Below are positions 16,701-37,879 of a stretch of 37,879 bases of DNA, in pieces. The position numbers and the translations under genes are program-made. Each line of letters opens with the position of its first letter. Within the stretch, counting starts at the first letter, position 1. Under the pieces are notes generated by a model, which was given only the letters and a program-made list of their open reading frames with translations, was not told where the DNA came from and searched no databases. Location of the stretch: assembly GCA_964470665.1 (NCBI GenBank), contig CAYYDS010000002.1, positions 1 to 37,879 of the forward strand, written 5' to 3'. The stretch is from an uncultured Lentimicrobiaceae bacterium. GTDB lineage: Bacteria; Bacteroidota; Bacteroidia; Bacteroidales; F082.

Positions 16701-18224
16701 ATTACTTTACAAAATAATGAATTAACTACTATTATCGGAATACGAGATGTATCTACTCATTATAATAAAACCAAAGGAGATGTGATGTTTACTTTTTATG
16801 ATACTTTATCAACTAATAAATACAATGTTACATTAGAAGAAAAAGTATGACATCTTTGTTATAATGAATTATTAAAAAAGTGAATTACTTTTTACTCGTG
16901 AGTTCCGTTATTATCTTCTAATATTTATAATTACTTTTATTCTTTTGATAGAGAACAAAGTAAGAATTTATCATACTTATATTTACAAAATCCTAATATC
17001 TACTTAGATACAATAAATAGGATATTATTAAATAGTAATAATAAAATAACAAATAATAGATTTTATCATCAAAATTATGTTATAGATCCAGAAAGTACTG
17101 ATAATGAGTTAATTTATAGAAAAGATATTAATAATACTATTAGTTATACTTTTGAATCAGATTTTGAAGATAATTATAAGAAAGTAAAATTTGATAAAAA
17201 TACTGGTTGTATTGTATTTAGAGACGGAGAAAGTGGTGATAATTTAAGATTAATTATAACGGTTAAAAATAATAACGGATCTCCTTTTTCCTCAACTGTT
17301 TTATTTAATAAAACAGATATACAATTATCTTTATATAAACATGGAGGATTAAATAATAAACCATCTAACTGATATGGTAAACAACATCCTTTTGAGATAG
17401 AATTTACAGTAATTGATGCTGAAAGTATACACAAAATATTTGAAACAATGAATATTATTTCAAATAAAGTTGCTCCCGAATCATTTCATTATAAATTACT
17501 AGGTGAACAATTATCTTTTAATCACGAATTACCAACAATGTTTTGGAGACAAGAAGCGTGAAATAATATATTACAATTAAATGGTAAAAATTTAATATAT
17601 AATAAATATTATGAACAAATGAATGTTCCTATTCAAGAAGAAGGTATTGTAAGATCTACAATTTTTCCATTATATTATTTTAATTTTCAACCATACGATG
17701 TGGTATATAATAATTATCAACTAAAGACAGACAATCCTATATATAATTATGCTAATTTATCTGGAACAAATATTAGTTTTGATGGTAAATACTTTTATTT
17801 AAACGTACACTGTTTAGCTGTTGATGCGGCAGTACATGGTAGATTAAGAGGAAATATTCATTATAAAAATGATTATTGATCTGTTCAAATACCAAGTATT
17901 AATTTTGTACAAAGTAATGAAAGTAGTTGAAGTATAGGAAATAGTACTAAATTACCAACATTATATACAAGATTATGTAATGTACCATATAGTAGCCATA
18001 GTAATGAAAATACTTTAAACATTACAAAATTACCTAAAAAATTAACAGAAATGGGATATAGTATTAATCCATTAAAAGGATTTAATATAAATGATGATTG
18101 AAATATTGATACAAAAAGATATGAGTGTAATATTAGAGACAAATATTTAAAAGTAAGATTAAGATATGATGGAAGTAAATTAACATTTATTTCTGCGATA
18201 ATAACAACATTTAATACGATTTAA
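13743..18224 (+). CDS. very large tail protein, possibly P22 gp10 / 'stabilisation protein'-like, 1493 aa
   Basis: ATG 13743. Frame 0 joins track ORFs 14193, 15453, 16242 and 17619 through about 15 TGA codons; all gaps read with no TAA/TAG. TAA 18222-18224. Motifs QPSYDGTVNLILNDDKNKPRLINSRF, GNYVFYFKYVDDDGNETDF and GYFFVRQKRIPSIL match my recollection of stabilisation-type tail proteins of Bacteroidota phages (unverified). Confidence 0.8.
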
Positions 18225-20284: not shown

Positions 20285-20862
20285 TGGAATTAGAAGTAAA
20301 CGGAAAAGAATACGATGTTAAGGTAGCTAAAACAGACGAAGAAAGAGAAAAAGGTTTATCTGATATTAAAAGTTTACCAAAAGATGAAGGAATGTTATTT
20401 GTATTTGATACTCCAGAAGAAGTATCTTTTTGAATGAAAGATACACTTATTCCATTAGATATTATATTTATAGACAAAAATAAAAAAGTAATAAGAACGT
20501 ATGCCGGTATTCCTAATGATGAAACTTTTTTAACAGAAGATAATGTATTATATGTTTTAGAAGTAAATATTAATTCAGGCATAATTAGTGGTGATGAAAT
20601 AGAATTTGAATTAGATGAAGAATCCGATGATGATAATAAATATGTTTTAAAAATATTAAATCAAGATGGATCTGTTCAAATGAACTTAGAAGGAGGAGAA
20701 AGAATTTTTAGTAGAAAACATTCAAAACGAATTATAGAGTTAGCTAAAAAAGCTGATCTATCTAAATCAGATAAAGATTACAGATCATTAGGAAGAACTA
20801 TTTTAAAGTATATTGATATTCAAGAAAATGCCGATCCCGAATATGTAGATATTAAAAAATAG
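20284..20862 (+). CDS. DUF192-domain protein with acidic/basic C-terminal extension, 192 aa
   Basis: ATG overlaps the previous stop (TAATG). N-terminal ~105 aa carry the DUF192 (COG1430) pattern: EREKGLSD...DEGMLFVF...FWMKDTLIPLDIIFID...YVLEVN...GDEIEF. The W of FWMK is TGA 20431-20433. TAG stop 20860-20862. Confidence 0.8.
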
Positions 20863-21292: not shown

Positions 21293-21321
21293 AAGGGCAT
21301 TTTTTTAAGATGCCCTTTTTT
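21293..21321 (+). terminator. intrinsic terminator hairpin after the 91-aa gene
   Basis: AAGGGCAT 21293-21300 pairs with ATGCCCTT 21310-21317. 9-nt loop, then a T run. The ATG at 21310 used by the ORF track lies inside this hairpin. Confidence 0.75.
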
Positions 21322-21333
21322 ATTGAACATATT

Positions 21334-24300
21334 ATGGCACACATACGAAAATACCAAGAAGGGAACAAATTAAAAAAATATACCGAACAAGATATTACAT
21401 CACATTTGAAAGGATTAGAACCAGGTAATTTTTCAGATGTTTTACAATATGCTTTAGTAAATACTACATTAAATGATCAATTTAAGAGTAATATTACTGC
21501 TGGTAAATTAACAGATGGAACATATAAATTAATAAATGATTATATATCTGCTAAAGGATATAAAGGTATCAATTTAAGTGAAATAGGTAGAGAATTACTT
21601 AAATTTGAAGAAGATTATGGTGCTTATCCAGAAGAGCCAAAACCCGTTGTTCCTACTAAAAAGGAAGCGTTCAGTTTTATGACAGAGTTATCTAAATTAT
21701 TAAGTGGTTTAGTTTCTGATAAAACTTTTGATATATCCCAAGAAAATCATCATAAAGCATATTGGGCTAATCCAAATGCAGGAGCATCTTATATAGCGAG
21801 TGTTCTTAAAGATTCATTAAATGATAAAAATTATTTTAATAATCTTTATGAACAATATGATTTTTCTAATACTTCTATTAAAAGTGCTGATGATTTAAAA
21901 ACACGATATTCTAATCTTATAGCAGAATTAGAAAACGGATATGATCCTAAAACAACAAATAGTGATATTTCAGCTATTGCTAAATTAACAACAGATGGTA
22001 CATTTTTACGATTATTGGATAACTCTATTAACTCAGATAGAACTACAACCACAACTACTAATCCAGAAAGTACAACTACTCAAAGAGACGCTTTATCACA
22101 ACTTACTATACCTACCGTAAAAATAGGGGATACAGAAGTACCTATAAGTCGGGCTTGACCAGAACACCGAACTTCATTATTAGCTAGTAATTATGCAACA
22201 TATACTCCTTTTACTACTCCTAACTTAGCTTTATTGGGAATGGAAGGATTACCAGAACATTTTAGAATAGGAGATGTTAGTGAAAGATTTATACCAAAAG
22301 GTGAAAAAAAAGATGTTTCTATTCTTAGTATATTAGATGAAGCAACAGGTAAAGAAAGATACATTATAGGAAAAGGTAATGATCTTTCTCAGTATAAACC
22401 ATTTAATCCAATAAAAAGTACAATCGATCAAAATAAATTAGTATTTGATGACATAGAATATAGTTATGATCCAACTAAATCAGTAATTGGTATTCCAGAT
22501 TTATATGAATATAACTTGGATAAAGTATCTACTTGATTAGATAACGCTAAACTTTCAGAAAATTATATAGATATGTTAGCAAGTAAAGCTAAACTATTGA
22601 ATGAAGGACATAATCAGTTTTTAGAAGCACTAAATAACAGTGTATTAGAAAGAACAAGACTGGGTACTAATCAAAATGGTTGAGCTAAATTAAGAACACC
22701 AAATCAAGGTATATTGTTTCATCAAACAAAAGACGGTACTAAATTACCTTGAGTGATAAATAATGTAAATAATAAATGAACATTAAATCCTTTTACTTCT
22801 CCATTTACGTCTAATTCTTCAACAAACAATCTATCTCAAAACGCTCTTTATTTTCTAGCAACCTATCAAGTAGGTGGAAAATTTAATAAAGGTGCTCTTT
22901 CTCCAATTCAAAAAGGTAAAGTAAAACAAGAAGATGAAGACGCAGCAACAAAAGCAATGTATTCAATAGGAGATAAAAGAAAAACCATGTCTATTACTGG
23001 AAAAGATGTATCTAAAGAAGGTGGTATTGAAAAAATGGGAGGAGATATATCTGATTATGATAGAGCTAGATGAAGGGCTACATTATTAGATATTTTATCT
23101 ATGGGAATAGCTCTTGCTCCAGCACCAGGAATGGGAATAGCAGGAGGTGCTATTGGAGCAGTAGGCAGTGTTGGTCATTTTATAGCGGATCTATCTGATG
23201 GATTTCAATTAGGCGATCTTGTAAGATTTGCTTCAAATTTAGGAGCCGATGGTGTTTCGATGACAAGATTTGGAGCATTAGCTAAATTAGGAAGAATTAG
23301 AAAAGGAGTAGCTTTTATGTTACCTGGATTAAGTGCTTTAATGTTAGGTAAACAAATTACTGATCCAACACAAAGAGAAAGTTTTGGTAAAACTTTTGAA
23401 AAACTTGGTAAATTTGAATTTACAAAATTAAATACAACTGACTTAAGTAATATTAGAACAATGATGGCTGCTGTAACTACAGGTAAAGCTGTTGTTGGAG
23501 GTAGTAAAACCATACAGAAAAATCTTCAATCGAAAACAACTAAAGACTCTAGTGTTTTAAAAACTGATGTAGAATTTAAAGGAAAAGATGGAAATGTTGT
23601 TAAAAGAACGGTAGAAATAGCTAATCCTTCTAGAAGTTGAAAGGATATAAAAGGTGGTCATAGATCTGGAGAAGTTAGTACTGCAGCAAAGAGTAAAGTT
23701 AAAAGCGATCTTAAATTAGATGATGCTGATATAAGTGATTTTAAAGTTATTGATTATAGTAAAAAAGTAACAACTAATCCTAGAACTAATTGATTCTTTA
23801 GAGGACTTCAAGTTAATAAACCTGAAAAACTTAATCTTTGAGGCGCAGAAGAAATAACTCCTGAAATATATAATGAATTTTTAAACTCAAAAGAAAAATT
23901 TAACAGAAATCCTTTTAATTGAGATGATGTTGCTCTTAAATTTAAACCAGTCATAATTGATAATTTTAAGTCTGGTGGAAAAATACAATATTTACAATTA
24001 GGCGATTCATTTAACATTCCTTGAAAATTAAAATTAGGATCAAATAATAAATTATATAAAGATTTTAATTTAATTCTTAATAAAACATGAGGTTACGAAG
24101 ATGAAAAAAATAAATCTTTTAATACCTTTGTAGCAAATTGACAAAAAACACAATCACCATTATTCAGTAGTTCCATTGTTATTCCAAAAAGAGTTACTGA
24201 ATCTTCTAAATCATTAGGTCCAACAATAGGTGTCGGTAATCAATCAGTATTACCTAGACCTAAGTTTGATTGATATACAATGATTACTAATATGGGAAAT

Positions 24301-25074
24301 GCTGGTAGTAGTATAGCAGCAAGTATAAGTAATTATAATAAATTAAAAAATTATCAACCGATTCTTGATCCCATATCTTCTCCTATTGTTATGCCGAAAG
24401 CACCAGTATTACAAGATGTTACTCCTTTTAAAAATGAAATATTTTCTCAAGTACATAATATGAGATTTTCAGATCCTTCTTTATTAACAGCAACTAAATA
24501 CGAAGGAATTAAACAAGCTACTGATTTAGATATAAAAGCAAATACTGCAAATATTGAAACATTAAATAATTATAATGCTTCTTTAACAAATGCTCAAACA
24601 CTAAGTAATCAACATAGACAATCAATAGCTGCATCAAATAATGCTAAACTTAATGAACTTAGTAGAGAAAAAATGCAAGGATTAGCTGATCTTAAAACAC
24701 ATATTGTAAAAATTAATTCTGATGTTAATAAAGTAGGATTGGTTTTGAAAGAACAATATGACACAAAGAGTGATAATTATGATTATATGAAAAACTTAAT
24801 GGGAATTAATACTGAATTAACAAATAAATCTACTCGTTTAGCTGAATTAACTAATATGTCTGCTCGTAATTCTGTATTAGAAGCTGAAAAAATTAGATTA
24901 GAAAAGGAAATAGACGAGTTAACAACAGTGTTTAATCGTTTACGGTATGGGAGTCCTTGGTTATATGAGTATCATAACAGTGGATCTTATGGACGAGGTA
25001 ATCCTGATAAAACATCAGTTCGTCAAAAAGGTGGAAAATTAAATTATATACAAAAATTAAAGAGTAATGGGTAA
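21334..25074 (+). CDS. giant internal/ejected-protein-like protein (tape-measure-like or cargo-like), 1246 aa
   Basis: Track ORFs 21310, 22234, 23101 and 24280 are all frame 1 and join through about 14 TGA codons; gaps read with no TAA/TAG. Start placed at ATG 21334, downstream of the terminator. G/A-rich hydrophobic block GIALAPAPGMGIAGGAIGAVGSVGHF...FMLPGLSALMLG. TAA 25072-25074. Confidence 0.8.
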
Positions 25075-26896
25075 TTATAACTTTTTAGTTCCTTATGAAC
25101 CTATTCTTATGAATAGACCTTCGGAAAAAGGAGCTTCTCCAGAAATGAGTAATTCAATAGATAACGATAAAACTAAACTTGATAAGGTTGAAGGACTTAG
25201 TTCTGATGTTAATGGATTTACTCAAAAATGAATGCATTTAATGAATAATATGAGTCTTTCAACAGGATCGACTTCTAGGTATTTACAGTTATATAATAAA
25301 GATTTAACTATTTTAAAAAATAATAAAGAACAATATGATGAAGCATTAAAATGGAGTAAGGATAATAAAAGTTTTAATGATTTCGCTGTTACAAATAATA
25401 TGGTATTAGGGTTAGATTTGAAAGAACAAAGTCTAACCTATATACCTATTAATGATATAAGTAAAAATAGAAACAATTTAGTACAAACCGAAAACGGTTT
25501 TGTTTATTCTAGCGGAGAAAACAAATATAAATTATTAACAAACCGTGAAGCATTACGTTATAGACACGATTATGTTACGGATAATAATTTAATAGATGTT
25601 GTATTAGGTTCATCTAGTTATTCTAATATACAAACTAAACTAATAGATGTTATTGATAAATTTAAAAACAAAACAATTAAAATTGGTAAAAGCGGGGCAA
25701 CTCGTCAAAAAATAGAAGATGGTATATTACGATTAGAAGAAAGCGAATATCAGTTAACTGAAAGTTTTTTAAAACCAGGCGAAGATGGAAAAGCATTAGT
25801 TATAGAATTAAGAGAATGATTAACTCCTACTGAACAAGGATTAATGCAGTTAAGAGCAGCTGTCACAGGAAAATCATTTGAAGAAACCATTATCGAATCT
25901 GTTAATCGTTATACTTCAGAACGACACGAAAATGTTGAAAAAGATACGTTTAGAGAAAAAGGATTACCTGGTAGTAAAAGTGGTGGAGGTGGTGATGGAT
26001 TAAGTGGTTCTCAAGAATTAAATTGGTTAACAATGCTTACTGAAAACAGGGGTAAAGTAGAACCAATGTATGTATTAAACATAGGAAGTGAAAATGAAAT
26101 GATTGCTACTAATGTTAGTACTTGATCAAACCCTGTAACATTATCCAATAAACCAATTAGTAGAAGTGTTACTTTAAATAAACTAATAACTGAAACAGGA
26201 TTAAATTCAGCAGGACAAGTAAATTCTGTTTATTTTGGAGAACAACGAATGGATGAAGATGCTTGAAACAGTATTGTATTTAATGCTGCTGAAAAAATAG
26301 CTGTTGCTAGAATGATTGCAGTAGAAGAAGCAGACGGTAGTGTTCATCCTGATTTTGATTTAATGGGAAGAATAAAAGCCGCAGAAGAAGAAATAAATAA
26401 GAGAGGTGGAAACTTAAGCGATAGTGATAAAGAATCAATATACGAAGATTTTAAAGTATATAGTAATATTATTCCATCTTTACTTGATCCTGATAAAGAA
26501 ATACCTGAAGAATATACTCGATTATTTATAGTAATGAGCGGATATGGAACAGACGATGGTAATTTAGTAAGTTCTAATAATAGAAGTGTAACTAAAATTA
26601 ATCATCGAGAAGAAGGTAATTTACGTGATTTATTAACTAGAACAATTAATGATCCTAGTAATTATGCCGATAATAAGAAAGGTGGTACTAAACTAAAATC
26701 ATTCTTTTTAGGTAGAGACAATATATATAAAGGTAATATTTATATTCCTTATAGTCCTGATAGAATTACTACAGCATCAATGAGTAAAACATTAAATGAA
26801 GTTAAATGGGCATATAGTCCAGAATTAGATAGAAGTAGCGATAATATGCATAATAAAGTTACTCCACCAATAACAACTTGATCAACAACAAAATAA
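25067..26896 (+). CDS. hypothetical large protein, 609 aa
   Basis: ATG 25067 overlaps the previous gene end (ATGGGTAA). Frame 2 joins track ORFs 25232, 25844 and 26312 through 5 TGA codons. TAA 26894-26896. Confidence 0.8.
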
Positions 26897-26897
26897 T

Positions 26898-29800
26898 ATG
26901 GATAATACTTTTGAACACGATTGGTTAGCATCCAAAATACATAATGACGATAATAAAAGTGATTGACAATTAAAATTACGCACTTTCGGTATAAACAAAA
27001 ATAATATTGGTTTATTACCGAAAGATGCTTATTTGAAAATGCCACAGGTAAGAGAATTAAGTTTATTTGTAGATACTGATGGAAATTTCAATCAAAGTAA
27101 GTTTGACAAATATTATGATGTTGCTTTAAAAGAATTTAACGAATTTATTGAAGATGATACATTAGATGAAGTTTTTTCTAAAGGAATATTATTTGATTAT
27201 TATCGTTTACCTTTAGGTGAACAAAAAGTATATTTGCGACCTTCTGTTAATCCTGAATTAAAAACAAAAGGTATTGGTAGATTGTTCGGAGAAGGTGCTC
27301 CTACAAGAAGTATGCGTGAAGCTGCTCAAACTCAAAAAGTATTTAATACAGAAACAAATGATTGAGAAGATTATTCTCCTAATGATTTAGGTATAAAGTA
27401 TTTTTTCAAGCAACCTTTAATTGAAGCTAGGTGAGAAGAAACAGGAATAGAAATTACTCCTTCTGGACAACAAAAGATACATTATGCTGGTGATTGAAAA
27501 CAAAATGAAAAAGGAATGCCCTTTTATGAAACACTTGGTAATAGAGATGTTGCTAATAAAGGCATTTTACATGTTGCCGACATTTTAACAGAAGATGGAT
27601 CTAAAGCTAATAAATTTGATGTATTTGATTCAGACGATATAGATAAATCTATTGGATCTGTAGTAGCTAAATCATTATTATCTGTACTTCCTTATTTAAT
27701 ACCCTATGTTGGTAGAGTTTATGGTTTAGTACAGGCTTCTACTTTTCTAACACAAGCACTCTCTGTATTCGGTAAAGCTATTATTCCAGATGAAGAGTTA
27801 GGAATATGAAAAGCAATGAACAAAGTGGATTCTGCTGTTAGAAAGTTTGATTATTCTACATCAGATAAAGGAAGTGGTTCATTTTTTACAGTTGAATCAT
27901 TAGGTAATATGTTACCTGAAATTGTTGGTCAATTATACCAACAGAGAATGATAGCTAAGTTACCTAAATTATTAGGTATGGATAAAGCAGCAAGTAGAGA
28001 AGCTGCTGAATTTGTTAATAAAAATTCAAAAACATATCTTTCTAAGTATGGGATAACTTTAGAAGAAGCTATTAAAACCAACAAAATTGATCCGGTCTTT
28101 TTTGAAGAATATTTAACTGGTATAAATTCTGTAACAAAATTAGCTAACGAAAGATCTAGAAAACTAGCAGAAAATGGATCTAAACTATATATGGCTTTTA
28201 CTCAATCATCAGATATGTATGATACATTTAAACAAAATGGTTATAGTGATTTAGGTACGGCTGTTGGTATGATGGGAGCATTATATGGGTTTCATCGTAT
28301 CTTTGCATCAAGTTTGGGTGATGTTGCATTAAGTGGTTTAGGGTTAGACGACACTAATAAACTAGTAAAAGCTTTATCCGCTGATATGATAGCTAAAACA
28401 GGAACTAAAGAATCTTTAGAAGCTGCCGCAAAAGCTGGATCATCTAAATTCATAAAAGCTGTAAATAAATTTGGAAATACTATGCAAAAGAATTTTGTTA
28501 AAATACTTGATAACAAAGAAGGTGTTTTAGCAAATATGGTTAAAGAGTCACTTGAAGAGGTTTCTGAAGAAGCTTTACAAGATGCTATATATTTTGGTAT
28601 GGAAAAATTAGACTGAGCTTTTAAAAAATTAGGGATTACTGAAAAACAAGGTAAACAAAAGTTTTTAGAATCAAGTCCTTTCCAGCGTTATTTAGCGTCT
28701 GCTGTTGGTGGTGCTATTGGTGGTGCTATGTTTCAAGGTATTGGGAAATTAGATGATATTATTCATAATGAATATCAAAAAGTACAAACTTTTAATGAAG
28801 CATTAGATAATAATCTGTATGGTGTTTTAATGGATCACATTAGAAATAACAAAACTGATGAAATATTAGCTACTATTGATAAAGAAGTAAAAAATGGTAA
28901 AGTTGCTTCTAAAAACTTGTCTTTTGATAAAAAAACAAAAGATACATTCGATGTTACCGATGATCCAAACAAATCACAAAATAAAGTATTAGGTGATATG
29001 TTAAGGCAATATGTAACATTAATGGATGTTATTATTAATAAAGGTGGTTATAGACTATCTGATAACGATATAGTTAATAGTGCTATAGATAAAGATGCTC
29101 TTGTTGAGGCTTTATCAGTTAAGCAAGATTTCTTTGATAACTCTTCTATTAGTGAACACATAATGTCTGATTTTACTTCTAATTTAGCAAATTATACTAA
29201 GAAAAGAGCAGAAGAATTAACTTGGACCGATGAACAAAAACAAGCGAATAAAGGATTACCTTTAGAATCTGAAATTTATAAACAACAATTAGATGATTTA
29301 TTAAGTGGTTCTAAAAAAGCGGATTACTTAATAAATTTACCATATTGATTTAATCCAACAATCAATGATAAATTGTTTGCTATGAATAAAGAAGTATTAG
29401 CTTATTCAATGTATGATCGTAATTATCAACAACTGAGTGTAGTTGAAACTCAAAAAGTTGATGAAATGTTTAATTTATATTCTTCTAATAAACAAGAATT
29501 TCATAAAAAACATGGTTTAAAGTTTTATAGAAGTATGTTAGAATTATCTAAGAATTTTGTTAATTCTAACAATTATAGCGAACAATTAATTAATTTTAAA
29601 GAAGAATTTAATAAATTAACAAAAGAATATAAAACCAAAGCTGTTGAAAAATTATTAAATTTTGATACTTTTAAAACACAATTTTTAAAAAATAAAACAG
29701 AATTAGAATTTTTTAATGAAAATCCTGATATTTTTAAATATTTAACTATAAAAGGTGATGTTATACCTGACGCTGAAAAAATAGAAGCTGTTGATAAATA

Positions 29801-32800
29801 TATTAAAGCAGAAAGCAGAAACATGGATAATGCTCAAACAAACAATAATGTTTCTGACTTTATCAAAACGAAAATAAATACACATAGTGGATTATCAGTT
29901 GATACAGATAGTGTGTTATTTGAGGATGATTTATTAATAGAATATTTAAATAAAGTAAAGGAAATAGTTGATAAACACCAGTATATTGATAAAGATACTA
30001 AGGAATATTTAACATATTTAAGAGAAACATATAATTCTCATAATCCTAATTTATTAGTTGACAAAATATTAAATAAAATTGTTGATGATTTAAAACCATC
30101 TTTCAATGTAATAGATTCTTTTAATTTAACTGAAGAAGATAAAAATAAAACGATAGAATCTATAAAACAATACAAAAAAGATTTAGAAAGACTTAGTAAA
30201 TTACCTACACTGAAGCCTAATGTAGCTACAGCCTTTTTTAACATATTGCCTTCAGCTTGACATGAAGATCAAACTAGTCTTAGGAAAGTAGATCCTTTTA
30301 GTGTATTGGGTGATTTTATTGAGTTAGTAGATCAGGATCCAAATATAATAAATGATCATACTTCTCCAGACGGAATTGCTTTAAATTATTTACTTGATGA
30401 AAATAGTTGAGAAAATATTGATAGTAATTTTACAGATTTAACTCCCATAAATAAATTAAAATATTTAAAATATAAAATTGAATCTGATTGAGAAGCTCAA
30501 GTTGTTGAAAATATTAACGTGTTAGAAGGGATAAGTGTTTTATTAGAAAGTGGTGATGATGCAAAAATTCAACGAGCAACTAAGTTTATTAATGACAATA
30601 AGGATACTTGAAAAGATATTGTTGATATTGATTTAGACCCTAACGTAAACATATTAGATAATGTAAACACTCTTATAAAAGCATTTGAGTCTGAATTAAA
30701 TGATACTGAGTATGATAACACAAAAGCATTATTAACTACATATGATTTTACACCTGATTTTAAAACAAAAATAGACAGCGATATAAACAATATAGATAGA
30801 CTATTAGATATATTAGAAAAATCAAGTATTGATTATGAAGATTTTAATGAAATAAATGTATTATATAATGAAGTTAAATATGGTATTGAAAAAAATACTA
30901 TAGTAGATCCTAATAATCCCCTCGATAATATTACTAATGTTTATAAATTAAATGATATTCTTGCTGATTATTATGATACAAAAATTCAAGTTTTTAGAAA
31001 CTTAGTAAATATAAACGACTTAACAAACGCTAATAACAATATAGCGACTATATTATCTACTTACGGGATTAAAGAAGATGGTAACAATAAAAAAATATCT
31101 GATTTAAAATTAGCTGAAAAAATAAGATTTATATCTTTAAATTTACCTTCTTTATTAATAAGTAATTTTACTACTCCTAATCCTGTTGTTTTTGATAATG
31201 CTTTGTTAAAACCAAAAATGGATCAAGTAATAAACGAAACTTATGATAAATCTAAAGAAATAGTTGATATTATATCATCTATAGATAATAATGTAAGTGT
31301 AGATAGTAGTCTTTATGATTTTACAAATACTGTAACTACTAAATTATTTGGTGAAAATATTAATGAAATTATTAGTAAAGAACAACTTAAATTTTTAGAT
31401 GATCCTAACTATCAGTATGAGCCAGAAGAAGGGTTGATTGATCGATTAAGATTAATGCACGATAGTCTTTTGACAGTATCTAAAATAATGAGCTTGTTTA
31501 TTAATGATGGTCCAACTTTAGGAGAAGGTTTAAATTATGTATCTATAATGAAAAACTATTTCAAGGATTATGATATGAAATCATTAACTAGTAAAGAGTT
31601 TGAAATATATGCTACAAATACTGACGCTTTATTAAGAAAAATAAATCAACTTATTGATAACGGTAAAGGTAGAGCTGAAACAGAAATAGCGGACAATGAA
31701 ATTGTTTGAAGTAAAGGAACAAATAGTATTATAACTGCGTTTATCAAAGGAGAAACTGGAGACAAATTAAAAAATATAAAAACTATTAGCGGTGATTCTT
31801 TTATAGAATTAGTAATAAAAGAGTTTGTAAACATTGATAATATTGATAACTTGCTGAGTAATCCTGATGAAGATCATATAAAATTATTTTTTGATTTTTT
31901 AAGTGCTGTTAATAAAGTATTTTCAGAATTAGACGATACTAATAAAGAATATGTTGTTAAATCATTTGTTAATTCTAATGTAATAACAAGTGAAAAAGAT
32001 TTAATGACAACTGTTAGTACTGTTTTTAACAAAACTACAACGGCTGATGATATACACATTAATTTACTAATTCATCTGTTAATGGCATCATCAGCATATG
32101 ATATTAAAAAGTTTAATAATGAATATAAAACCGCTTTGAACAATGGTTTAAAACATACTTTATTTTTTCAACAATATTTAGCTTCTTTTGAAAATGTTGC
32201 ATTTACTATAAATAATCCAGCATTTGAACATTATTTATCTTCTGATGATGATACTCGTTCTTTTAAACCAAATAATATTTCAAAGAAAATGATGTTAACT
32301 ACTGGTGTAGCCGGAAGTGGAAAATCTACAGCTACTCCAGAAGCAACAAATGCTATTTTACAACAAATGATTGTAAAAAACACAGAAGGTAAAGATCGTA
32401 AACTAAAAGTTTGATATTCTTCTCCTTCTGATTATACCTTAACTTTAAAAAATAATGTAAAAGGTATTAATAAAACTGAAGCTGAATCTTCTAAACAAGA
32501 ACCAAATTATTTTTCAAGAACAGAACTATTTAGTAAAATTTTTGGAGAAACAATTTATAATGAAGCATTACAAGCATATGAACGAAAAGAAACTGAATTT
32601 TTAACTAAAGATCATATTACTAAATTAACAGATGTAGAATTACCTGATGTTATATTGGTAGACGAGTATACTTGATTTCATAATGATGAAATGTGAGCTT
32701 TAGAAAAATTAGGAATTACTGTACTAATGTTTGGTGATAATAAACAAGATGGATTACGAGAAAGAGACAATAATTTATATTTTCAGGGAGCTAATTTTGA

Positions 32801-35681
32801 ATCTCCAGAAATAGTATTGCGTTTACGTAGTAATAATATGGCTATGAATCAAGCCAACAAAACACTATATAATATTGTTAGAGAATATAATGAAACTGAA
32901 AATCCGCGGGAGGGAAGAAAAAAAGTATTTGAAAAATTAAAACAATTATCATTTATACATTTCTATAATGTTGATAAAACAATATTAAATGGTGTAGATG
33001 TTGTACCTAATGATTCTTCTTTACACGATAAAGCAAAATCTTTAATGAGTGGATTAAAACCAGGTGAAAAAATAACAGTTATTACAAATAAAAGAAGTGG
33101 ATGATTTGATAATTTAAGAGGTGAATTATTAACAATATTACCTCCAGAAAACACAAGAGGTGCTGAAACAGCTTATTCTATTATAGATATAGACTGACAA
33201 TTAATTAATGGTGAAGATAAATCTAATACTTTTGCGGCAAGATTATATACTTTAGTAAGTAGAGCGAAACACGGTGTTATTTTGGTTAACAATAGCCAGT
33301 ATACTTTACCTTCTAACGAAATATCATATCGTATTAGTTATGATGAAAAATTTACTACTGATGATTTAAATAAACTTAAAAATCATATGTTAAATGTAGT
33401 GTTAAAAGATGCTAAAGTAGATCCTACTAAAAAAGAAAATAAAGAAAATAAACAGCAAATTACTAAAGAAGCTAGTGAAGAAAAAAAACTTCAAAAACTA
33501 AGTAATGAAATATTAAACTTATTAAAAAAGGAAGATGCTCCAGAACAAAAAAATATAGCTACTCCAAACAGAATTGCTATTAATTTATCAAGTTTAGATA
33601 AAACTTTCATGTGTGCTAATAGTATAGATTTATATGACTTATTGAACTATAATTCAGAATCACAAGATAAATTATCTAATTTTGCAAAATTTTCTGATTT
33701 TTTCTTACAAAGTAATCCTGATAAAATTTATGATAGTTTTTTATTAAATTTTATAAAAGAAACGTTTTCGGCTGACGATATAAGTAATATTGATGAAAGT
33801 ATTATTGAATCGTGAGATGATTTTAAAAAATTATTAACTTTTAAATTAATATATGATAAGAAGTTAAATAAATATTTTTTAGCTGTTACTATTAATTTTA
33901 AGGGTATAGAGGGATTTACAACAACTAAACATTCCTGAACTATCTATTTAGGTGAACTTTATAAAGAATTATCACAGAATGATGTTAATACTAATACAAT
34001 AAAACAATATTTAAACCAAAATGGTGAATTTATAATAGATGATTATTATAATGAAAATAATAAATTTATTAGAAAAAATACTTATGGGGAAGGTAATCCA
34101 CAAGAAGTAAATGACTTTACAACAATATATTGAAGAAATAAAATTGGAGATGTTAGATTAACCCCCGGTTCTGAAGGTTTTGTAAATCATTTTTCTGGAA
34201 GAACTGTTTTATTTGTAGATAATAATTTCTGAAGAGCTGATCAAAATAAAAATATTTTAGAATATTATTTAGAAGAACTACAAAATAATCAAAAAAGTAC
34301 TGATTTAGTTAGCAAATCATCATATATGTTTATGTTAAATGAAGTTGGTATTACACCATCTGAATTTATGAAAAATTATGCGAAATCAGATAGATCTATT
34401 ATAAAAAACGTAAATATGGGAAAATTTATATTGTCCTTATATTTATTAAAACAAGATTTAGACAATGATATTATAACTTTAGATAGTAGTGAGAAAGACT
34501 TAGCTATTGAATTAATTAATAATTATTTTATTACAGATAGGAGATTACATTCATTAACGGATATAACTATTTCTAGTCGTGTTACAACACCCATTGAAAA
34601 TTCAGATTTAATAGATACTGAAAAAAGAGGAGCTTCTCTTTCTTCATCTCAACGAAATTCTTGATATTACATAGAACAAAATAAGGATAATTATAAAGAT
34701 TCAATAAAACATGTAATTAATATTTTAAACAACGGTGCTTTTAACGATGGTGATTTAAATAAATTTATTGATGACTTTTTAGGACGATTAAAGGATTTTG
34801 ATTCTATACAGTATAGAAGTAGTGTACTTTTAGCTAACGCTCCCGCTAATTCAAATTCAAACTACTTAAATTTCTTACAATTATTAACAAAAGACGATGT
34901 AATTAGTATTCTTTTAAGTAAGTTTAATATTGATAAGGATATTAAAAAACAGCGATATGATATAAAAACATTATTAGAAAATGGTGTAGTTCCAATATTT
35001 TTTAAATTAAATTCTATGTTATCAACCTATGTTGATATGTTTAATAATAATGTATATTTTAAAGAAATTGTAGAAAAAAGTTGAGAAAGATATTTTTTTC
35101 CAGGAGGATATTTTGTTACAGGGTTAAGTAAAAAAAGAACAAGTGACACACATATTAATGGGTTTTATAAAGCAACAGATGAGATTGTTAAAAATGCTAG
35201 AGTACCTGGTTTTCTTAAATATCAAAATATTTATTTAGACGGATTAGATATTGTTAAGAAAATGAACAATGGTATTGTTTCACAAACTCCTCCTTCTATT
35301 CCTACTAATACTAATAAATCTACTACTAAGTCTGTTAAATCAAAACCTCAGTTAAAAAATACTTCTCAGAAAAAGTCTAAGATTAATCAGAATATTTCTA
35401 CTATTATTCCAAGTTCTCAATCTAATTCTCAATCTTCTACTAATCTATCTACTATTCCGACTTCTACTCAACCTCCTGTTCCTGTTTCTACTTTAAATTC
35501 TTCCACAATAGAAGTTATAGACTATGATGATAAAATACAATATAATATGGATGGTGAGAATTATATTCGTGTAGGAAATAATTGAAAATATAAAAAAGGT
35601 AAAACTGTAACCGATCAATCAATTATAGATGCGTTAAATAAATATCAAGAAGAAAATAAACCAGAAGACTGTAAACCTTAA
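26898..35681 (+). CDS. giant multidomain protein, 2927 aa, with hydrophobic N-terminal third, internal SF1-helicase-like ATPase domain and S/T/P-rich C-terminal linker
   Basis: ATG 26898. Ten track ORFs (27033, 27516, 27816, 28728, 29373, 31203, 31851, 32727, 33282, 34326, 35262) are all frame 0. I read every gap codon by codon, including the 943-nt gap 30261-31202, and found only TGA (about 24 in total). TAA 35679-35681. Confidence 0.85.
32290..33290 (+). other. SF1 (RecD/Dda/alphavirus-like) helicase-type P-loop NTPase domain inside the 2927-aa ORF
   Basis: Walker A GVAGSGKST (32304-32330). Walker B ILVDEY (DE at 32661-32666). Motif III-like MFGDNKQDG (32727-32753). Motif V-like ENTRGAETAYSIIDID. 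Motif VI-like YTLVSRAKHGVILV (33246-33287). Canonical order and spacing. Confidence 0.65.
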
Positions 35682-35686
35682 ACAAT

Positions 35687-37879
35687 ATGGCAAAGTGTAT
35701 AAATTTAAAAACAAGTAACCCAGAGATTAAAAAAATATATGATGAATATTTTACAGATCTTGATTCTTATAATCCAAGTACTGTAAAAAGTTATATTGAT
35801 GCTGTTGGGAGTAAAACAAAAATTAAGGATAAAATTGCTATTTATAACAATATCCGTTCTGATCAAAATATTAATAGTAACTTTAAACATTTTACTAATT
35901 CTGATTGAATTGATGTTATAAACTATGCTCTCGATGTAAATACTAAATATGAGTCTTTACAAATAAATGATAATATAACTTTTGAAAATAAAGATTATAA
36001 GTTTTTTTCAAGTAATATAGTTAAAACTAAATTTCTTAAAAAATTACATAAAAGTTTAATTAATATAACTTATTTTAAATATGGTACAATTGCTCCTGTT
36101 ATATCTAATTCTGATTTAACAAAAAGTATTAATGCTTGAAAAACAACATTAATGAATAAATTGAAAACAGAATTAAAGATTGAACACTTAGATGATAGGA
36201 GTGCGTTGATATACAGTAAATTGTTTTTAAAAGAAGCTAATTTAAAAAATATTTCTTCTGATTTAGCTGATCCTACAATAACTTGAGCTGAAGCAGCTTA
36301 TATATTACATAATTTTGATAAAATTATTAGAGATACTAAATTTATTACTAAAAACGGAAATGCGTATTCTTTTGAACGAAAGGTTTTAGAAAAATCTTAT
36401 TATGATAATGAGACAGCTATGTCTACATCTACTCCTCAATATTTAAAAAATTATATTGAATCATTAATATTAGACGATGATTGAACAACTATGAGTATGC
36501 AAAATTTAAATGATATTAGTAGAATATTATCTAATTTAATTAATAGTAACACTTCATTTTGAAATGAGGAGGATGAAATCGATAATACTAAAACTTTTGG
36601 ATCTGATACAATAAGTATTCAAGATAAAATGCATCAATTGTATCACTATTCTGATAAATATTTTATTAAAGAAAAATCATTGATAAAAGCAATGCAAACA
36701 CTATATCACGCTGTTTATTCTCCATATGAAGACGATAACTCATTATGATATAGATATAATAAATATTATAAAAATAATGAAACAAATTGAGGAGAATTAC
36801 CTTGAAATTTATATGATATTGTTTCTAAGCATTTACTTACTTCTAAAGCAATAGTTTATACAGAAAGTTTATATGATAAAGAATCAAATACAAACACACT
36901 AGTTAAATCTGATTTTAAAGCTATTGATAAAAGAGTTAAACAACTTAGACGAAGTATTCAAGGATCTTTGTTTTTAGAATCTAATATTAAAGAAAAAGAA
37001 AATGAATTAGAAATAAAATTATCTTCTGACAAATCTATTGTTATTAAAAATAAAAAAATATTATATAACAATAATCCATTAACAACTAATGAAAGTGATT
37101 ATGATATTTGAAAATATATTTTTTCTGATGTTATTGGTCAAAATTTTTCTACAGAACAATTAAGAGATCTTTTTAGTTGAGAAGGCTTAACAAACTATAC
37201 TAATGCTTCAAATCAATTAAATTTGATATATGATTTAGTAATTTCTTCATATATATCTAAACAAGCACTTAATAATAATCAAGTATTGACAATAAGTGAA
37301 ATAAAAGATGCTTTAAATAATAATAAATTTATTAATGATAATATAAAAAAGGGATATAGAAATAGTACTCAAATAAATAGTATTAGTTCTCAAATAAATA
37401 GTATTATAAATTATATAGCTTATTCATTACAAAAAACAGATAATATTCCGCTTGATTCGTTTTTTATAAATGCTAAAAAAGATAATATTGCTAGAGATAG
37501 AGTTAGAAATGTTGCTTTAGAAGCTCCTCAAATAATGAGAAAAACTATATCAAATTTGGGGTTAGATAAAAATATATTTAGTGATTTATTAAATAATCCT
37601 ACACATGGTAAAGATTGAGGATTACATTTAATGGGGTATATACAAAATAATTCAGGATATAGTAAATCTGTACAAAAATTATCATTATCTGAATCTTGAT
37701 ATAATAATTTTGTTGAAAATTTTGTAAAGTTATATACTAACGATAATACAATGAATAATAACATTATATCTAAAATGTTATTTTTTCAACCAACGGTATA
37801 TGCTGATAAAGGTAATATTTTTAAAATCCCTCTTACTTTTGATTTTTTAGATAGTGTTGGATTAAATTTAAATGATAAA
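35687..37879 (+). CDS. 5' part of another giant protein (at least 731 aa, runs off right edge)
   Basis: ATG 35687. Frame 2 joins track ORFs 35687..35908 and 37223..37618 through about 12 TGA codons. Still open at the last codon, 37877-37879. No recognisable motifs. Confidence 0.8.

What the first reader, a model, noticed from the sequence alone, without database searches (positions are those of the whole stretch)
26898..35681. A 2927-aa single ORF with an SF1-helicase-like ATPase buried at about residues 1800-2130
This is the largest gene in the window and is invisible in the standard-code track. The N-terminal third has hydrophobic segments like those of ejected internal virion proteins (VVAKSLLSVLPYLIPYVGRVYGLVQASTFLTQALSVFGKAI; LGTAVGMMGALYGF; YLASAVGGAIGGAMFQGIG). 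The middle carries an ordered set of SF1 motifs (GVAGSGKST, ILVDEY, FGDNKQDG, SRAKHGVILV). The C-terminus is a low-complexity S/T/P/N linker plus a small terminal domain. I do not recognise this combination: a helicase-type NTPase fused into a giant protein that sits in the virion/ejection gene block rather than a replication module. It could be an injected enzyme acting on the incoming genome or on host nucleic acids.
Basis: partly seen in the sequence, partly recalled or inferred. Interest (0 to 1): 0.8.

Follow-up and report, generated by a model that had tools for sequence, protein, structure and literature searches.

The report
Helicase-bearing giant cargo protein, crassvirus
This is a real 2927-residue gene of a gut crAss-like (Zeta group) phage that reads TGA as tryptophan; it carries a conserved, probably active SF1B helicase and sits directly before the virion RNA polymerase gene, so it is most likely packaged and injected with the DNA to help start phage transcription.

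Summary
Positions 26898-35681 form one 2927-codon ORF with 24 in-frame TGA and 2 TGG, and TGA=Trp is confirmed by homology. Pfam marks the window as a crassvirus (capsid, muzzle). Its gene order matches the Zeta crAss-like phage Lera, where the gene at this position is listed as "RecD-like protein".

Residues ~1698-2196 are a genuine SF1B helicase core. Pfam hits pass their cut-offs. A family profile hits Upf1, RecD and IGHMBP2. A good AlphaFold model of a family member matches only SF1B helicases. All catalytic motifs are invariant across lineages that are 17-22% identical.

The family has about 129 clusters at 50% identity. Nearly all long hits are 2400-3600-aa giants built as N-terminal module, variable middle, helicase, variable C-terminus. 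One lineage splits the gene in two.

The next gene is the crAss-type virion RNA polymerase. The gene in this position is a mass-spectrometry-verified virion protein in crAss001 (gp47) and phi14:2 (g067), but those lack a helicase.

Best reading: an ejected cargo protein whose helicase prepares the incoming DNA for the virion polymerase. Packaging and activity are inferred, not shown.

An unreported signature also emerged: junction-facing terminal cysteines link this protein and the following RNAP-block giants across Crassvirales.

The parts
26898..35681 (+). Giant ORF, 2927 aa under code 4 (TGA=Trp), roughly 330 kDa by my estimate. It corresponds by position and size to Lera gene 191, 'RecD-like protein'.
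26913..29459 (+). Universal N-terminal module (residues 6-854), the most conserved part of the family. A family member's model shows a small alpha/beta region followed by a long-helix bundle.
   Evidence: Family HMM E=1.4e-140. Present in all lineages. AF2 model of a relative has pLDDT 76. No PDB match by sequence or fold.
27648..27782 (+). The only segment with transmembrane-like hydropathy (residues ~251-295).
   Evidence: Kyte-Doolittle score >=1.4. The region is conserved in orthologues.
28686..28745 (+). Conserved Gly/Ala-rich 'glycine-zipper'-like segment RYLASAVGGAIGGAMFQGIG (residues 597-616).
   Evidence: R, Y, GG, GG and F are invariant in orthologues.
29460..31988 (+). Lineage-variable middle region (residues 855-1697).
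   Evidence: No match to the family 'middle' HMM in the window, L004 or L044. BLAST against L004 extends only to ~1081 and resumes at 1468.
31989..33485 (+). SF1B helicase module (residues 1698-2196): a helical lead-in carrying an invariant Gln (with a nearly invariant Pro upstream), then two RecA-like domains.
   Evidence: Family HMM E=1.2e-44. Pfam Viral_helicase1 29.7 bits (cut-off 21) and SLFN-g3_helicase 28.1 (cut-off 24). Profile against PDB hits Upf1, RecD and IGHMBP2. A family member's AF2 model matches SF1B helicases.
32304..32330 (+). Motif I / Walker A, GVAGSGKST (K1809).
   Evidence: G..G.GK is invariant across 10 lineages; G, G and K are invariant in the 60-sequence alignment.
32652..32669 (+). 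Motif II / Walker B, ILVDEY (D1922, E1923).
   Evidence: DE.T invariant.
32730..32753 (+). Motif III, FGDNKQDG (GD..Q.G).
   Evidence: Invariant.
33258..33287 (+). Motif VI, SRAKHGVILV (R2122, the likely arginine finger). Motif V lies just upstream as TRGAE, where the family has QG.E.
   Evidence: T, R and G invariant, Y and S nearly so. The window has R where 90% of lineages have Q.
33486..35678 (+). Lineage-variable C-terminal region (residues 2197-2927), including an S/T/P/Q-rich stretch. No homologue was detected.
   Evidence: No match to the family C-terminal HMM. Composition.
35670..35672 (+). Cys2925, third residue from the C-terminus and one of only two Cys in the protein. This is the family-wide C-terminal cysteine.
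   Evidence: 84 of 87 family members and 39 of 39 loci have a Cys in the last 6 residues, against ~1% expected.
35687..37879 (+). Start of the next giant gene, the N-terminal part of the crAss-type virion RNA polymerase (cut by the window end). It begins MAKC (Cys4 at 35696-35698).
   Evidence: Orthologues are 3241-3254 aa and contain QGSDYDID, a DxDxD motif. A Cys in the first 8 residues occurs in 39 of 39 loci.
21310..26896 (+). Two upstream genes (1254 aa and 609 aa) in the positions of crAss001 cargo proteins C1 and C2. Both are completely free of cysteine.
   Evidence: Synteny. Zero Cys. No Pfam or PHROG match.
13743..18224 (+). Crassvirus muzzle protein.
   Evidence: Pfam crAss_MUZ, 83.1 bits against a cut-off of 27.
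3750..5171 (+). Crassvirus major capsid protein.
   Evidence: Pfam Crass_capsid, 44.1 bits against a cut-off of 27. phrog_11589.

Best explanation
The ORF encodes the Zeta-group version of the crassvirus 'RNA-polymerase-associated' giant cargo protein. It is made late, packaged in the virion, and ejected into the host ahead of or together with the DNA and the virion RNA polymerase (vRNAP) encoded by the next gene.

Shown here: (1) it is a real, conserved gene of a crassvirus; (2) it contains a bona fide SF1B helicase core under strong purifying selection, found almost only inside this giant; (3) its place in the gene order is fixed: muzzle, two cargo-like genes, this giant, then vRNAP.

Inferred: (a) it is packaged and ejected; (b) the conserved N-terminal helical module, with its hydrophobic and glycine-rich segments, serves packaging, passage or membrane anchoring; (c) once refolded in the cytoplasm, the helicase uses ATP to translocate on and open the incoming phage DNA. 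That would give the vRNAP the single-stranded template it prefers, and may also help draw the genome in. Early transcription would then depend less on host factors.

The conserved Cys at its C-terminus and the Cys at the N-terminus of the vRNAP suggest that the two proteins are physically coupled head to tail.
For: Identity. Pfam Crass_capsid, crAss_MUZ and DUF192 are found in the window. Gene order matches phage Lera gene for gene, with the 8346-nt 'RecD-like protein' followed by the RNAP.

Helicase. Pfam hits exceed their cut-offs in the window tile and in orthologues. The family profile hits Upf1/NAM7 at 1e-8, RecD at 5e-6 and IGHMBP2. The AF2 model of P0001 has pLDDT ~90 over residues 1-500. 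Its top Foldseek hits at probability 1.0 are all SF1B helicases: nsp13, Upf1, Dna2, RecD2, Dda, Sen1. Motifs I-VI are invariant or nearly so across lineages 17-22% identical.

Family. An exhaustive HMMER search found 129 clusters. Nearly all long hits are 2400-3600-aa giants with the helicase at ~1300-2200, and no ordinary cellular helicases appeared.

Late, virion context. The gene sits in a tight same-strand operon with the structural genes, 1 nt after the previous stop and 5 nt before the next ATG. It is heavily TGA-recoded like the other structural genes; Yutin 2021 reports that such recoding is mostly confined to late genes.

Packaging by analogy. The gene directly upstream of the vRNAP is an MS-verified virion protein in phi14:2 (g067) and crAss001 (gp47). 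Both share the C-terminal Cys signature with the window protein.

Why a helicase would help. The phi14:2 vRNAP transcribes single-stranded or denatured DNA efficiently but native dsDNA poorly. Its eukaryotic relative QDE-1 needs the helicase QDE-3 and RPA.

The next gene is the vRNAP. Orthologues carry QGSDYDID.
Against: No virion proteomics exists for any Zeta-group phage, so packaging rests on position and on the Cys signature. No sequence similarity to crAss001 gp47 or phi14:2 g067 was detectable, so orthology with those verified cargo proteins is positional only. The helicase's substrate (DNA or RNA) and polarity cannot be read from sequence; the best structural matches include RNA helicases. 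The window's motif V has R where 90% of lineages have Q. About 1570 residues (the middle and C-terminal regions) have no detectable homologue or assigned function. A protein of roughly 330 kDa would have to unfold to pass through the tail and then refold into an active enzyme, although the same is proposed for the vRNAP.
Confidence: 0.6

Rival explanations
1. RNA-side partner of the vRNAP. A Sen1/Upf1-like 5'-3' translocase tracks along the nascent transcript, strips RNA from the single-stranded template (template recycling, R-loop removal) or terminates early transcription. It does not open the DNA.
For: The best sequence and structure matches include Upf1, Sen1, IGHMBP2 and RNA-virus helicases. 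The Pfam Viral_helicase1 model (RNA-virus SF1 helicases) passes its cut-off. Same adjacency to the vRNAP. From my own knowledge, phage N4 vRNAP needs E. coli SSB for template recycling, so an analogous need here is plausible.
Against: RecD, RecD2, Dna2 and Dda (DNA helicases) match about as well. Nothing in the sequence discriminates RNA from DNA substrates.
Confidence: 0.15
2. Genome-internalisation motor. The protein is anchored at the membrane channel through its N-terminal module, and its helicase acts as an ATP-driven translocase that pulls the long (~150-190 kb) genome into the cell.
For: The conserved N-terminal module has a hydrophobic segment and a glycine-zipper-like segment. Zeta genomes are the largest in the order, 145-192 kb. 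The helicase is specific to this large-genome group and absent from gp47 and g067.
Against: Only one segment reaches transmembrane-like hydropathy. The N-terminal fold matches to membrane transporters are not significant (best E=0.14). From my own knowledge, SF1B enzymes track single strands, whereas entering phage DNA is double-stranded.
Confidence: 0.12
3. Injected anti-defence 'polyvalent' protein in the manner of phage P1 DarB. It coats or remodels the incoming DNA, or displaces host restriction or other defence complexes from it.
For: P1 DarB is a giant head protein with a helicase-like ATPase that protects the DNA in cis against type I restriction. Giant multidomain proteins delivered with DNA are a recognised class. 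There are weak structural resemblances of the N-terminal module to polyvalent-protein-associated domains (E=0.03-0.06).
Against: No methylase or other counter-defence domain, and no polyvalent-protein Pfam domain, was found in the window protein or three full-length orthologues. DarB's ATPase is SF2/SNF2, not SF1B. No PADLOC match. The strict coupling to the vRNAP gene, and the shared terminal-Cys signature, point to the transcription apparatus.
Confidence: 0.08
4. Not packaged. It is a replication/recombination helicase ('RecD-like') that merely happens to be encoded next to the structural genes.
For: The automatic annotation is 'RecD-like protein'. RecD is among the profile hits.
Against: No NCBIfam RecD/Dda/Pif1 model matches. 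The helicase is fused, in almost every lineage, to a ~860-aa conserved module and ~1500 further residues that are not helicase-like. Its position between cargo-like genes and the vRNAP is invariant. Zeta phages carry separate DnaB and SNF2 helicases and a primase in their replication block. It is recoded like the late genes.
Confidence: 0.05

Closest known systems
Lera phage (Zeta crAss-like, proposed 'Echekviridae') gene 191 'RecD-like protein'; UniProt A0A8S5RTY8 'RecD-like protein [Siphoviridae sp. gcode 4]' and A0A8S5TKT5 'Helicase [Podoviridae sp.]'
   Same: Same family and same gene-order position: muzzle, hypothetical, DUF192, small ORF, two hypotheticals, giant, then RNAP. Similar size (8346 nt against 8784 nt). 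Lera also uses code 4 with TGA inside this gene. The UniProt entries are the top structural matches to the family's N-terminal module.
   Different: Those are automatic names in a supplementary table and in database records. No main text that I could search discusses the protein. The window protein shares only ~20-34% identity with the members I could align, and has its own middle and C-terminal regions.
crAss001 gp47 and phi14:2 g067 (virion-packaged giants encoded next to the crassvirus vRNAP)
   Same: Same position after the muzzle and two or three smaller cargo/structural genes. In phi14:2 the giant lies directly before the catalytic vRNAP gene, as in the window; in crAss001 gp47 is followed by the RNAP genes gp49 and gp50 on the opposite strand. 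Giant size (2341 and 1797 aa). Both are detected in virions by mass spectrometry. Same near-absence of cysteine apart from one at the C-terminus: gp47 has its single Cys at position -3, as in the window, and g067 has its single Cys as the last residue.
   Different: No detectable sequence similarity, no helicase domain and no Walker A motif.
Phage P1 DarB and the 'polyvalent proteins' of Iyer et al. 2017 (PMC5512222)
   Same: Giant multidomain phage proteins that are delivered into the host with the DNA and carry a helicase-type ATPase acting on the incoming DNA.
   Different: DarB combines a methylase with an SF2 (SNF2-like) ATPase and works against restriction. Here there is a single recognisable enzymatic domain, it is SF1B, and the context is the virion transcription apparatus. 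None of the polyvalent-protein signature domains was detected.
SF1B helicases Upf1, RecD/RecD2, Dda, Dna2, Sen1 and nidovirus nsp13
   Same: The full motif set I-VI and the two-RecA-domain fold.
   Different: Only 10-16% identity in structural alignments, with low TM-scores (0.23-0.30) caused by different accessory domains. No curated family model matches. The domain is embedded ~1700 residues into a 2927-aa protein.
Phage N4 (Schitoviridae) virion RNA polymerase and its co-ejected proteins
   Same: A giant RNAP is packaged and expelled with additional ejection proteins to start early transcription (abstract of PMC13434306). From my own knowledge, N4 vRNAP also needs single-stranded promoter hairpins and host helpers (gyrase, SSB).
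   Different: N4 relies on host factors and, to my knowledge, has no packaged helicase. The RNAP families are unrelated.
Poxvirus cores and the conjugative relaxase-helicase TraI (comparison from my own knowledge, not tested here)
   Same: Poxvirus cores package helicase-type NTPases (NPH-I, NPH-II) together with the viral RNAP for early transcription. TraI is an SF1B helicase-containing pilot protein transported into the recipient cell with the DNA.
   Different: Unrelated lineages and delivery machines. These are functional analogies only.

Membership tests
Superfamily 1 helicases, SF1B branch (Upf1/RecD/Pif1-Dda-like) | Walker A (motif I) GxxxxGK[ST] and Walker B (motif II) DE | tested here: met
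   GVAGSGKST at 1803 and VDEY at 1921-1924. Invariant in the 10-, 27- and 60-sequence alignments.
Superfamily 1 helicases, SF1B branch (Upf1/RecD/Pif1-Dda-like) | Motifs III (GDxxQ), IV (conserved R), V (QGxE) and VI (arginine finger), in the right order | tested here: met
   GD..Q.G, P...SLR..N, (Q/R)G.E and YT..SR..G are invariant or nearly so. The window has R in place of the motif V Gln.
Superfamily 1 helicases, SF1B branch (Upf1/RecD/Pif1-Dda-like) | Significant match to curated SF1 profiles and to solved SF1B proteins | tested here: met
   Viral_helicase1 and SLFN-g3_helicase are above cut-off in the window tile. AAA_30, AAA_19 and Viral_helicase1 are above cut-off in orthologues. The profile hits Upf1 at 1e-8 and RecD at 5e-6.
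Superfamily 1 helicases, SF1B branch (Upf1/RecD/Pif1-Dda-like) | Two tandem RecA-like domains with the SF1B fold | tested here: met
   Tested on family member P0001, not the window protein itself, because the tools refuse code-4 translations. AF2 gave pLDDT ~90 and pTM 0.76. The listed top Foldseek hits are SF1B helicases at probability 1.0. The window segment matches the same family HMM at 1e-44.
Superfamily 1 helicases, SF1B branch (Upf1/RecD/Pif1-Dda-like) | Nucleic-acid-dependent ATPase with 5'-3' translocation or unwinding | not testable with these tools
   Needs biochemistry.
RecD proper (RecBCD subunit / RecD2) | Match to curated RecD family models, and RecB/RecC partners or the RecD2 architecture | tested here: not met
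   No NCBIfam model matches the window tile, P0001 or two full-length members. No RecB/RecC-like Pfam domains were found in the neighbouring giants. 'RecD-like' is therefore only a loose label.
Crassvirales (crAss-like phages), Zeta group | Crassvirus capsid and muzzle proteins | tested here: met
   Pfam Crass_capsid scores 44.1 bits and crAss_MUZ 83.1 bits, both against a cut-off of 27.
Crassvirales (crAss-like phages), Zeta group | Gene order of the Zeta structural/transcription block, and mixed TAG/TGA/standard codes among relatives | tested here: met
   Collinear with Lera Table S1. Relatives use the standard code, TAG>Q or TGA>W, as described for Zeta.
Crassvirales (crAss-like phages), Zeta group | Giant vRNAP with a DxDxD motif | tested here: inconclusive
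   Orthologues of the next gene carry QGSDYDID. In the window only the first 730 codons of that gene are present, so the motif itself lies outside the window.
Crassvirus virion cargo / RNAP-associated giants (crAss001 gp47, phi14:2 g067) | Encoded between the smaller cargo genes and the vRNAP genes | tested here: met
Crassvirus virion cargo / RNAP-associated giants (crAss001 gp47, phi14:2 g067) | Sequence homology to gp47 or g067 | tested here: not met
   hhalign probability <1% against gp47. The family HMMs find nothing in gp47 or g065-g071. These proteins are known to evolve very fast, so this does not exclude common origin.
Crassvirus virion cargo / RNAP-associated giants (crAss001 gp47, phi14:2 g067) | Physical presence in virions | not testable with these tools
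   Mass-spectrometry data exist only for crAss001 and phi14:2.
Polyvalent proteins (Iyer et al. 2017) | Several effector domains plus polyvalent-protein-associated (LPD) domains in one polypeptide | tested here: not met
   Only one enzymatic domain is recognisable, and there are no LPD or ART-PolyVal Pfam hits. Only weak structural resemblance (E=0.03-0.06).

The most novel reading that the evidence does not exclude
The helicase giant is the first link of a covalently or metal-tethered chain of ejected proteins. Across Crassvirales, each giant of the RNAP block carries a cysteine at its C-terminus, and the next protein carries one at residue 3-7. These proteins are otherwise almost free of cysteine. 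In phi14:2 the only Cys residues are g067 C1797, g066 C3 and C2179, and g065 C3.

The proposal is that these pairs form head-to-tail disulfide (or CxxC-like metal) links in the virion. The unfolded proteins would then be pulled through the tail one after another in a fixed order, and released or kept adjacent on reaching the reducing cytoplasm. In the Zeta group this would deliver a helicase physically coupled to the virion RNA polymerase. That would amount to a self-contained transcription machine for duplex DNA, and could explain how a polymerase that prefers single-stranded templates starts on the injected genome.
Probability: 0.3. Interest if true: 0.85.

Novelty: new variant of a known kind. 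Interest (0 to 1): 0.62.

Why it matters
Crassviruses are the most abundant viruses of the human gut, and how they start infection is poorly understood. Their virion RNA polymerase has been shown in vitro to work well on single-stranded DNA and poorly on native duplex DNA, and what opens the template in vivo is unknown.

A conserved, apparently active SF1B helicase encoded directly before that polymerase, in a protein that by position should be co-injected, is an obvious candidate for the missing activity in the Zeta group. This makes the question directly testable by running polymerase plus helicase module on native DNA.

It would also be an SF1B example of a helicase delivered inside a phage virion; the best-known precedent, P1 DarB, is SF2 and acts against restriction.

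The terminal-cysteine signature found along the way can be tested immediately in the two cultured phages, and bears on how very large proteins are ejected in order through a narrow tail.

Tried and rejected
1. Word-indexed protein searches with the window helicase tile and with the 10-lineage profile found nothing useful. The 3-sequence profile gave only P0001 and one unrelated helicase.
2. The restricted tools refuse code-4 translations of the window. I therefore modelled family members (P0001, P0027) and transferred the result through family HMMs.
3. PHROGs gave nothing for the giant or its large neighbours, in the window or in orthologues.
4. The N-terminal module has no sequence match and no significant fold match in the PDB.
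5. Homology to crAss001 gp47 or phi14:2 g065-g071 was tested and not found.
6. NCBIfam and PADLOC gave no match.
7. Pfam found nothing in the vRNAP or in the two proteins after it, so Lera's 'exonuclease V' label for the last one could not be reproduced.
8. I considered a Mycoplasma/Spiroplasma-type phage because of code 4 and 26% GC. I rejected this because crassvirus capsid and muzzle families and Zeta synteny are present.
9. I considered the Epsilon crAss group, which is reported to lack the RNAP block. I rejected this because orthologues of the next gene carry the DxDxD motif.
10. I considered that the split gene in MT835492 was an assembly error. I rejected this because two separate 50%-identity clusters (P0003, P0005) and an independent assembly (P0001) start at the same place.
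11. No tRNA (and so no suppressor) is present in the window.

Full report
**1. The observation**

Under the bacterial code the region 26898-35681 is broken by 24 in-frame stops, all of them TGA. The same frame holds only 2 TGG codons and ends in TAA. Reading TGA as a sense codon turns the whole 37.9-kb window into 23 tightly packed genes on the + strand. Together they have 109 in-frame TGA and 21 TGG, and every complete gene ends in TAA or TAG.

From the window's base composition (26% G+C), the chance of 2927 consecutive codons with no TAA or TAG is about 1e-98. At the window's TGA positions inside the conserved modules, 27 of 96 aligned orthologue residues are Trp, against a background Trp frequency of 0.8%. 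So TGA=Trp and the 2927-aa ORF is real.

The quoted helicase motifs lie at residues 1803, 1919, 1945 and 2121. The three quoted hydrophobic stretches exist. Only the first (~251-295) reaches transmembrane-like hydropathy; the other two are conserved Gly/Ala-rich segments.

**2. What genome this is**

- Pfam identifies a crassvirus major capsid protein (3750-5171), a crassvirus muzzle protein (13743-18224) and a DUF192 protein (20284-20862), all above their curated cut-offs.
- The nearest deposited genomes are two unannotated human-gut MAGs, MT835470 and MT835492 (capsid 65% and 58% identical). Classified Crassvirales are only remote relatives.
- MT835470 uses the standard code, MT835492 needs TAG recoded, and the window uses TGA=Trp. 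IMG/VR relatives on contigs of 49-190 kb (plus one short fragment) show all three codes. This matches the description of the Zeta crAss-like group: 145-192 kb genomes, code switching at short distances, recoding mostly in late genes.
- The published gene table of the Zeta phage Lera gives the order: major capsid, ring proteins, muzzle (4575 nt), hypothetical, DUF192 (570 nt), small ORF, two hypotheticals (2796 and 1887 nt), 'RecD-like protein' (8346 nt), hypothetical (6321 nt), homing endonuclease, 'DNA-dependent RNA polymerase'. The window is collinear with this, so the finding's ORF corresponds to Lera gene 191.

**3. The helicase**

- Residues 1739-2178 of the window protein hit Pfam Viral_helicase1 (29.7 bits, cut-off 21) and SLFN-g3_helicase (28.1 bits, cut-off 24). 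There are weaker AAA_30 and UvrD_C_2 hits in the right order.
- Standard-code orthologues hit AAA_30, AAA_19 and Viral_helicase1 above cut-off, and nothing else anywhere in ~2900 residues.
- In an alignment of ten lineages only 17-22% identical to the window, the invariant columns are the SF1 catalytic residues. These are Walker A G..G.GK, Walker B DE.T, motif III GD..Q.G, motif IV P/R, motif V G (with Q and E nearly invariant) and motif VI T, R and G (with Y and S nearly invariant). An invariant Gln lies upstream of Walker A. The core of this set recurs in the 27- and 60-sequence alignments.
- The family profile finds Upf1/NAM7 (1e-8, both RecA halves), RecD (5e-6), IGHMBP2, Sen1 and a nidovirus helicase among solved structures.
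- An AlphaFold model of the family's stand-alone helicase protein P0001 is confident (pLDDT ~90 over residues 1-500, pTM 0.76). All its top Foldseek hits, at probability 1.0, are SF1B helicases: nsp13, Upf1, alphavirus and tobamovirus helicases, Dna2, RecD2/RecD, SLFN11, Dda, IGHMBP2, Sen1.
- The window segment 1698-2196 matches the family helicase HMM at 1e-44.
- No NCBIfam model (RecD, Dda, Pif1 and so on) and no PADLOC model matches. It is therefore an SF1B helicase of its own clade, and 'RecD-like' is a loose label.
- One deviation: the window has Arg where 90% of lineages have the motif V Gln.

**4. The family and its architecture**

An exhaustive HMMER search of 1.84 billion representative proteins with P0001 found 129 clusters. 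Nearly all long hits are 2400-3600-aa proteins with the helicase at about residues 1300-2200. Two are stand-alone proteins of ~1550-1600 aa with the helicase at the N-terminus. No ordinary cellular helicase appears.

All 39 IMG/VR loci with a full-length copy have an intact ORF of 2895-3298 codons (stop to stop).

Region-specific family HMMs show two universal parts: an N-terminal module (window residues 6-854, E=1e-140) and the helicase. The middle region and the ~750-1300-aa C-terminal region are lineage-variable. The window, L004 and L044 match neither variable-region HMM. L040 keeps part of the middle region but lacks the common C-terminal domain. L019 keeps the middle region but not the C-terminal domain.

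In the MT835492 lineage the gene is split into a 1540-aa N-terminal protein and a 1555-aa helicase protein. This is seen in independent assemblies and in two clusters only 44% identical, so the two halves can work as separate polypeptides.

The N-terminal module, modelled on a relative (pLDDT 76), is a small alpha/beta region followed by long helices. It has no significant match in the PDB. In the viral structure library its top hits are family members named 'Helicase' and 'RecD-like protein ... gcode 4'.

**5. Context**

In every lineage the order is: a ~1000-1550-aa protein, a ~600-640-aa protein, the helicase giant, then a giant of more than 2200 aa. The window has the same order (1254 aa, 609 aa, 2927 aa, and at least 730 aa before the window ends).

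The downstream giant is the virion RNA polymerase. In L047 and L073 it is a single 3241-3254-aa ORF containing QGSDYDID, a DxDxD motif like the catalytic DFDID of phi14:2 gp66. In MT835470, L066 and Lera a homing-endonuclease gene is inserted in this gene. In MT835470 and L066 the first ORF ends ...QGSDY, inside the motif, as reported for the Zeta group.

In the cultured crassviruses the corresponding block is experimentally characterised:
- **crAss001:** muzzle gp44, cargo C1 gp45, cargo C2 gp46, then gp47 (262.5 kDa), gp49 and gp50. All were detected in virions by mass spectrometry and are proposed to be ejected, partly unfolded, through the tail.
- **phi14:2:** g067 (1797 aa), the vRNAP g066, then g065. 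All are MS-verified virion proteins.

The window's giant therefore occupies the gp47/g067 position. I found no sequence similarity to gp47 or g067, and neither has a helicase. The helicase thus appears specific to this Zeta-type family.

**6. How it most likely works**

Shown:
- an apparently active SF1B NTPase under purifying selection;
- fixed fusion to a conserved N-terminal module;
- fixed adjacency and tight operon coupling to the vRNAP gene;
- late-gene-like recoding.

Inferred: packaging and ejection, by analogy with gp47 and g067.

The phi14:2 vRNAP transcribes single-stranded or denatured DNA efficiently but native duplex DNA poorly. Its eukaryotic structural relative QDE-1 needs the helicase QDE-3 and RPA. 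A co-delivered helicase that opens the entering genome for the polymerase is therefore the simplest role, and I commit to it at moderate confidence.

The variants I cannot exclude are: stripping RNA from the template or terminating transcription (Sen1/Upf1-like); acting as a motor to pull in the very long genome; and an anti-defence role like P1 DarB. A plain replication helicase is unlikely, given the architecture, the position, and the separate DnaB/SNF2 helicases of Zeta phages.

**7. An unexpected signature**

The window protein has only two cysteines, one of them third from the C-terminus.

| Test | Result |
|---|---|
| Family members with a Cys in the last 6 residues | 84 of 87 (33 as the very last residue), against ~1% expected |
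| Loci with a Cys in the last 6 residues of the giant | 39 of 39 |
| Downstream vRNAP ORFs with a Cys in the first 8 residues | 39 of 39 (MAC, MANC, MAKC...) |
| Control: upstream ORFs of at least 300 aa with either feature | 0 of 77; these ORFs are essentially Cys-free |

The chain continues downstream. In L047 and L073 the vRNAP ends ...INC or ...INCE, the next protein runs MSC...E[ND]C, and the one after starts MAC. In the split lineage the new termini are again ...ACKVIA and MQSNC....

The same pattern holds in the cultured phages:
- **phi14:2:** g067 has one Cys (the last residue), g066 has two (residues 3 and 2179), and g065 has one (residue 3).
- **crAss001:** gp47 has one Cys, at position -3. 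gp49 has one, at residue 5. gp50 starts MSKRC.

[quoted passage not shown] A fused junction would read C-M-A-C. The crAss001 virion does contain structural disulfides. No paper I could search mentions these terminal cysteines.

The signature independently ties the window's giant to the packaged RNAP-block proteins. It also suggests head-to-tail coupling, which is a hypothesis only.

**8. Novelty**

The gene family is already present in databases, with an automatic helicase label. The existence of the domain is therefore not new, and the window's protein is a divergent new member.

What is not in the literature I could search is the analysis itself:
- a dedicated SF1B clade confined to the gp47-position cargo giant of Zeta crassviruses;
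- the modular architecture;
- the proposed functional link to the vRNAP's template preference;
- the terminal-cysteine chain.

I rate it a new variant of a known kind (crassvirus cargo giants / polyvalent injected proteins).

Noticed in passing
window 35670-35672 (Cys2925 of the giant) and 35696-35698 (Cys4 of the next gene); also L047, L066, L073, L003, L046 (crAss001), L077 (phi14:2): Junction-facing terminal cysteines. Each giant of the RNAP block ends with a Cys (last 1-6 residues) and the next begins with a Cys (residue 3-7), in proteins otherwise almost free of Cys. The counts are 39/39 and 39/39 loci against 0/77 control ORFs. In phi14:2 the only Cys residues of g067, g066 and g065 are 1797; 3 and 2179; and 3. 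I could not find this reported in any paper available to me.
   Followed up: partly
window 21310-25074 and 25067-26896; L001 2491-7155 and 7146-8978; phi14:2 g070 and g068: The cargo-like proteins upstream of the giant contain no cysteine at all (0 in 1254 and 609 aa in the window). The mean Cys frequency is 2e-5 in 77 such ORFs across loci. This is extreme depletion, consistent with avoidance of stray disulfides in ejected proteins.
   Followed up: partly
L002 11992-16614 and 16596-21263 (MT835492); P0001, P0003, P0005: In one lineage the giant is split into an N-terminal protein (1540 aa) and a helicase protein (1555 aa), with the ORFs overlapping by 19 nt. The new termini again carry Cys (...ACKVIA and MQSNC...).
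   Followed up: partly
L003 (MT835470), L066, and Lera genes 188-190, compared with L047 and L073: A homing-endonuclease ORF (~233 aa) is inserted in the vRNAP gene in MT835470, L066 and Lera, and is absent from close relatives. In MT835470 and L066 the break falls exactly inside the catalytic DxDxD motif (QGSDY | DIDK...).
   Followed up: partly
window, L001, L002, L018, L040, L044: Close relatives carrying the same gene block use three different genetic codes: standard, TAG>Gln and TGA>Trp. No suppressor tRNA lies within this window.
   Followed up: partly
window 33486-35678 and 29460-31988: The window protein's C-terminal ~730 residues and middle ~840 residues match neither the family HMMs nor any database protein. 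The common ~1000-aa C-terminal domain of other lineages is absent here and also in L004, L019, L040 and L044.
   Followed up: partly
window 21310-25074, protein residues ~590-690: The 1254-aa upstream protein has a long Gly/Ala-rich hydrophobic stretch (ILSMGIALAPAPGMGIAGGAIGAVGSVGHF... through ...LPGLSALMLG). This recalls the predicted transmembrane helix of crAss001 cargo protein C1 (gp45), but there is no Pfam crAss_CARG1 match.
   Followed up: no
window 20284-20862: A DUF192 (COG1430) protein is encoded between the muzzle region and the cargo-like genes, as in phage Lera. Its role in a virion block is unknown.
   Followed up: no
BFVD hit A0A345N460: A 1004-aa viral protein with no name in the tables at hand matches the N-terminal module model at E=6e-8 with only 15% identity. 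It may be a distant relative of the module outside the helicase-giant family.
   Followed up: no
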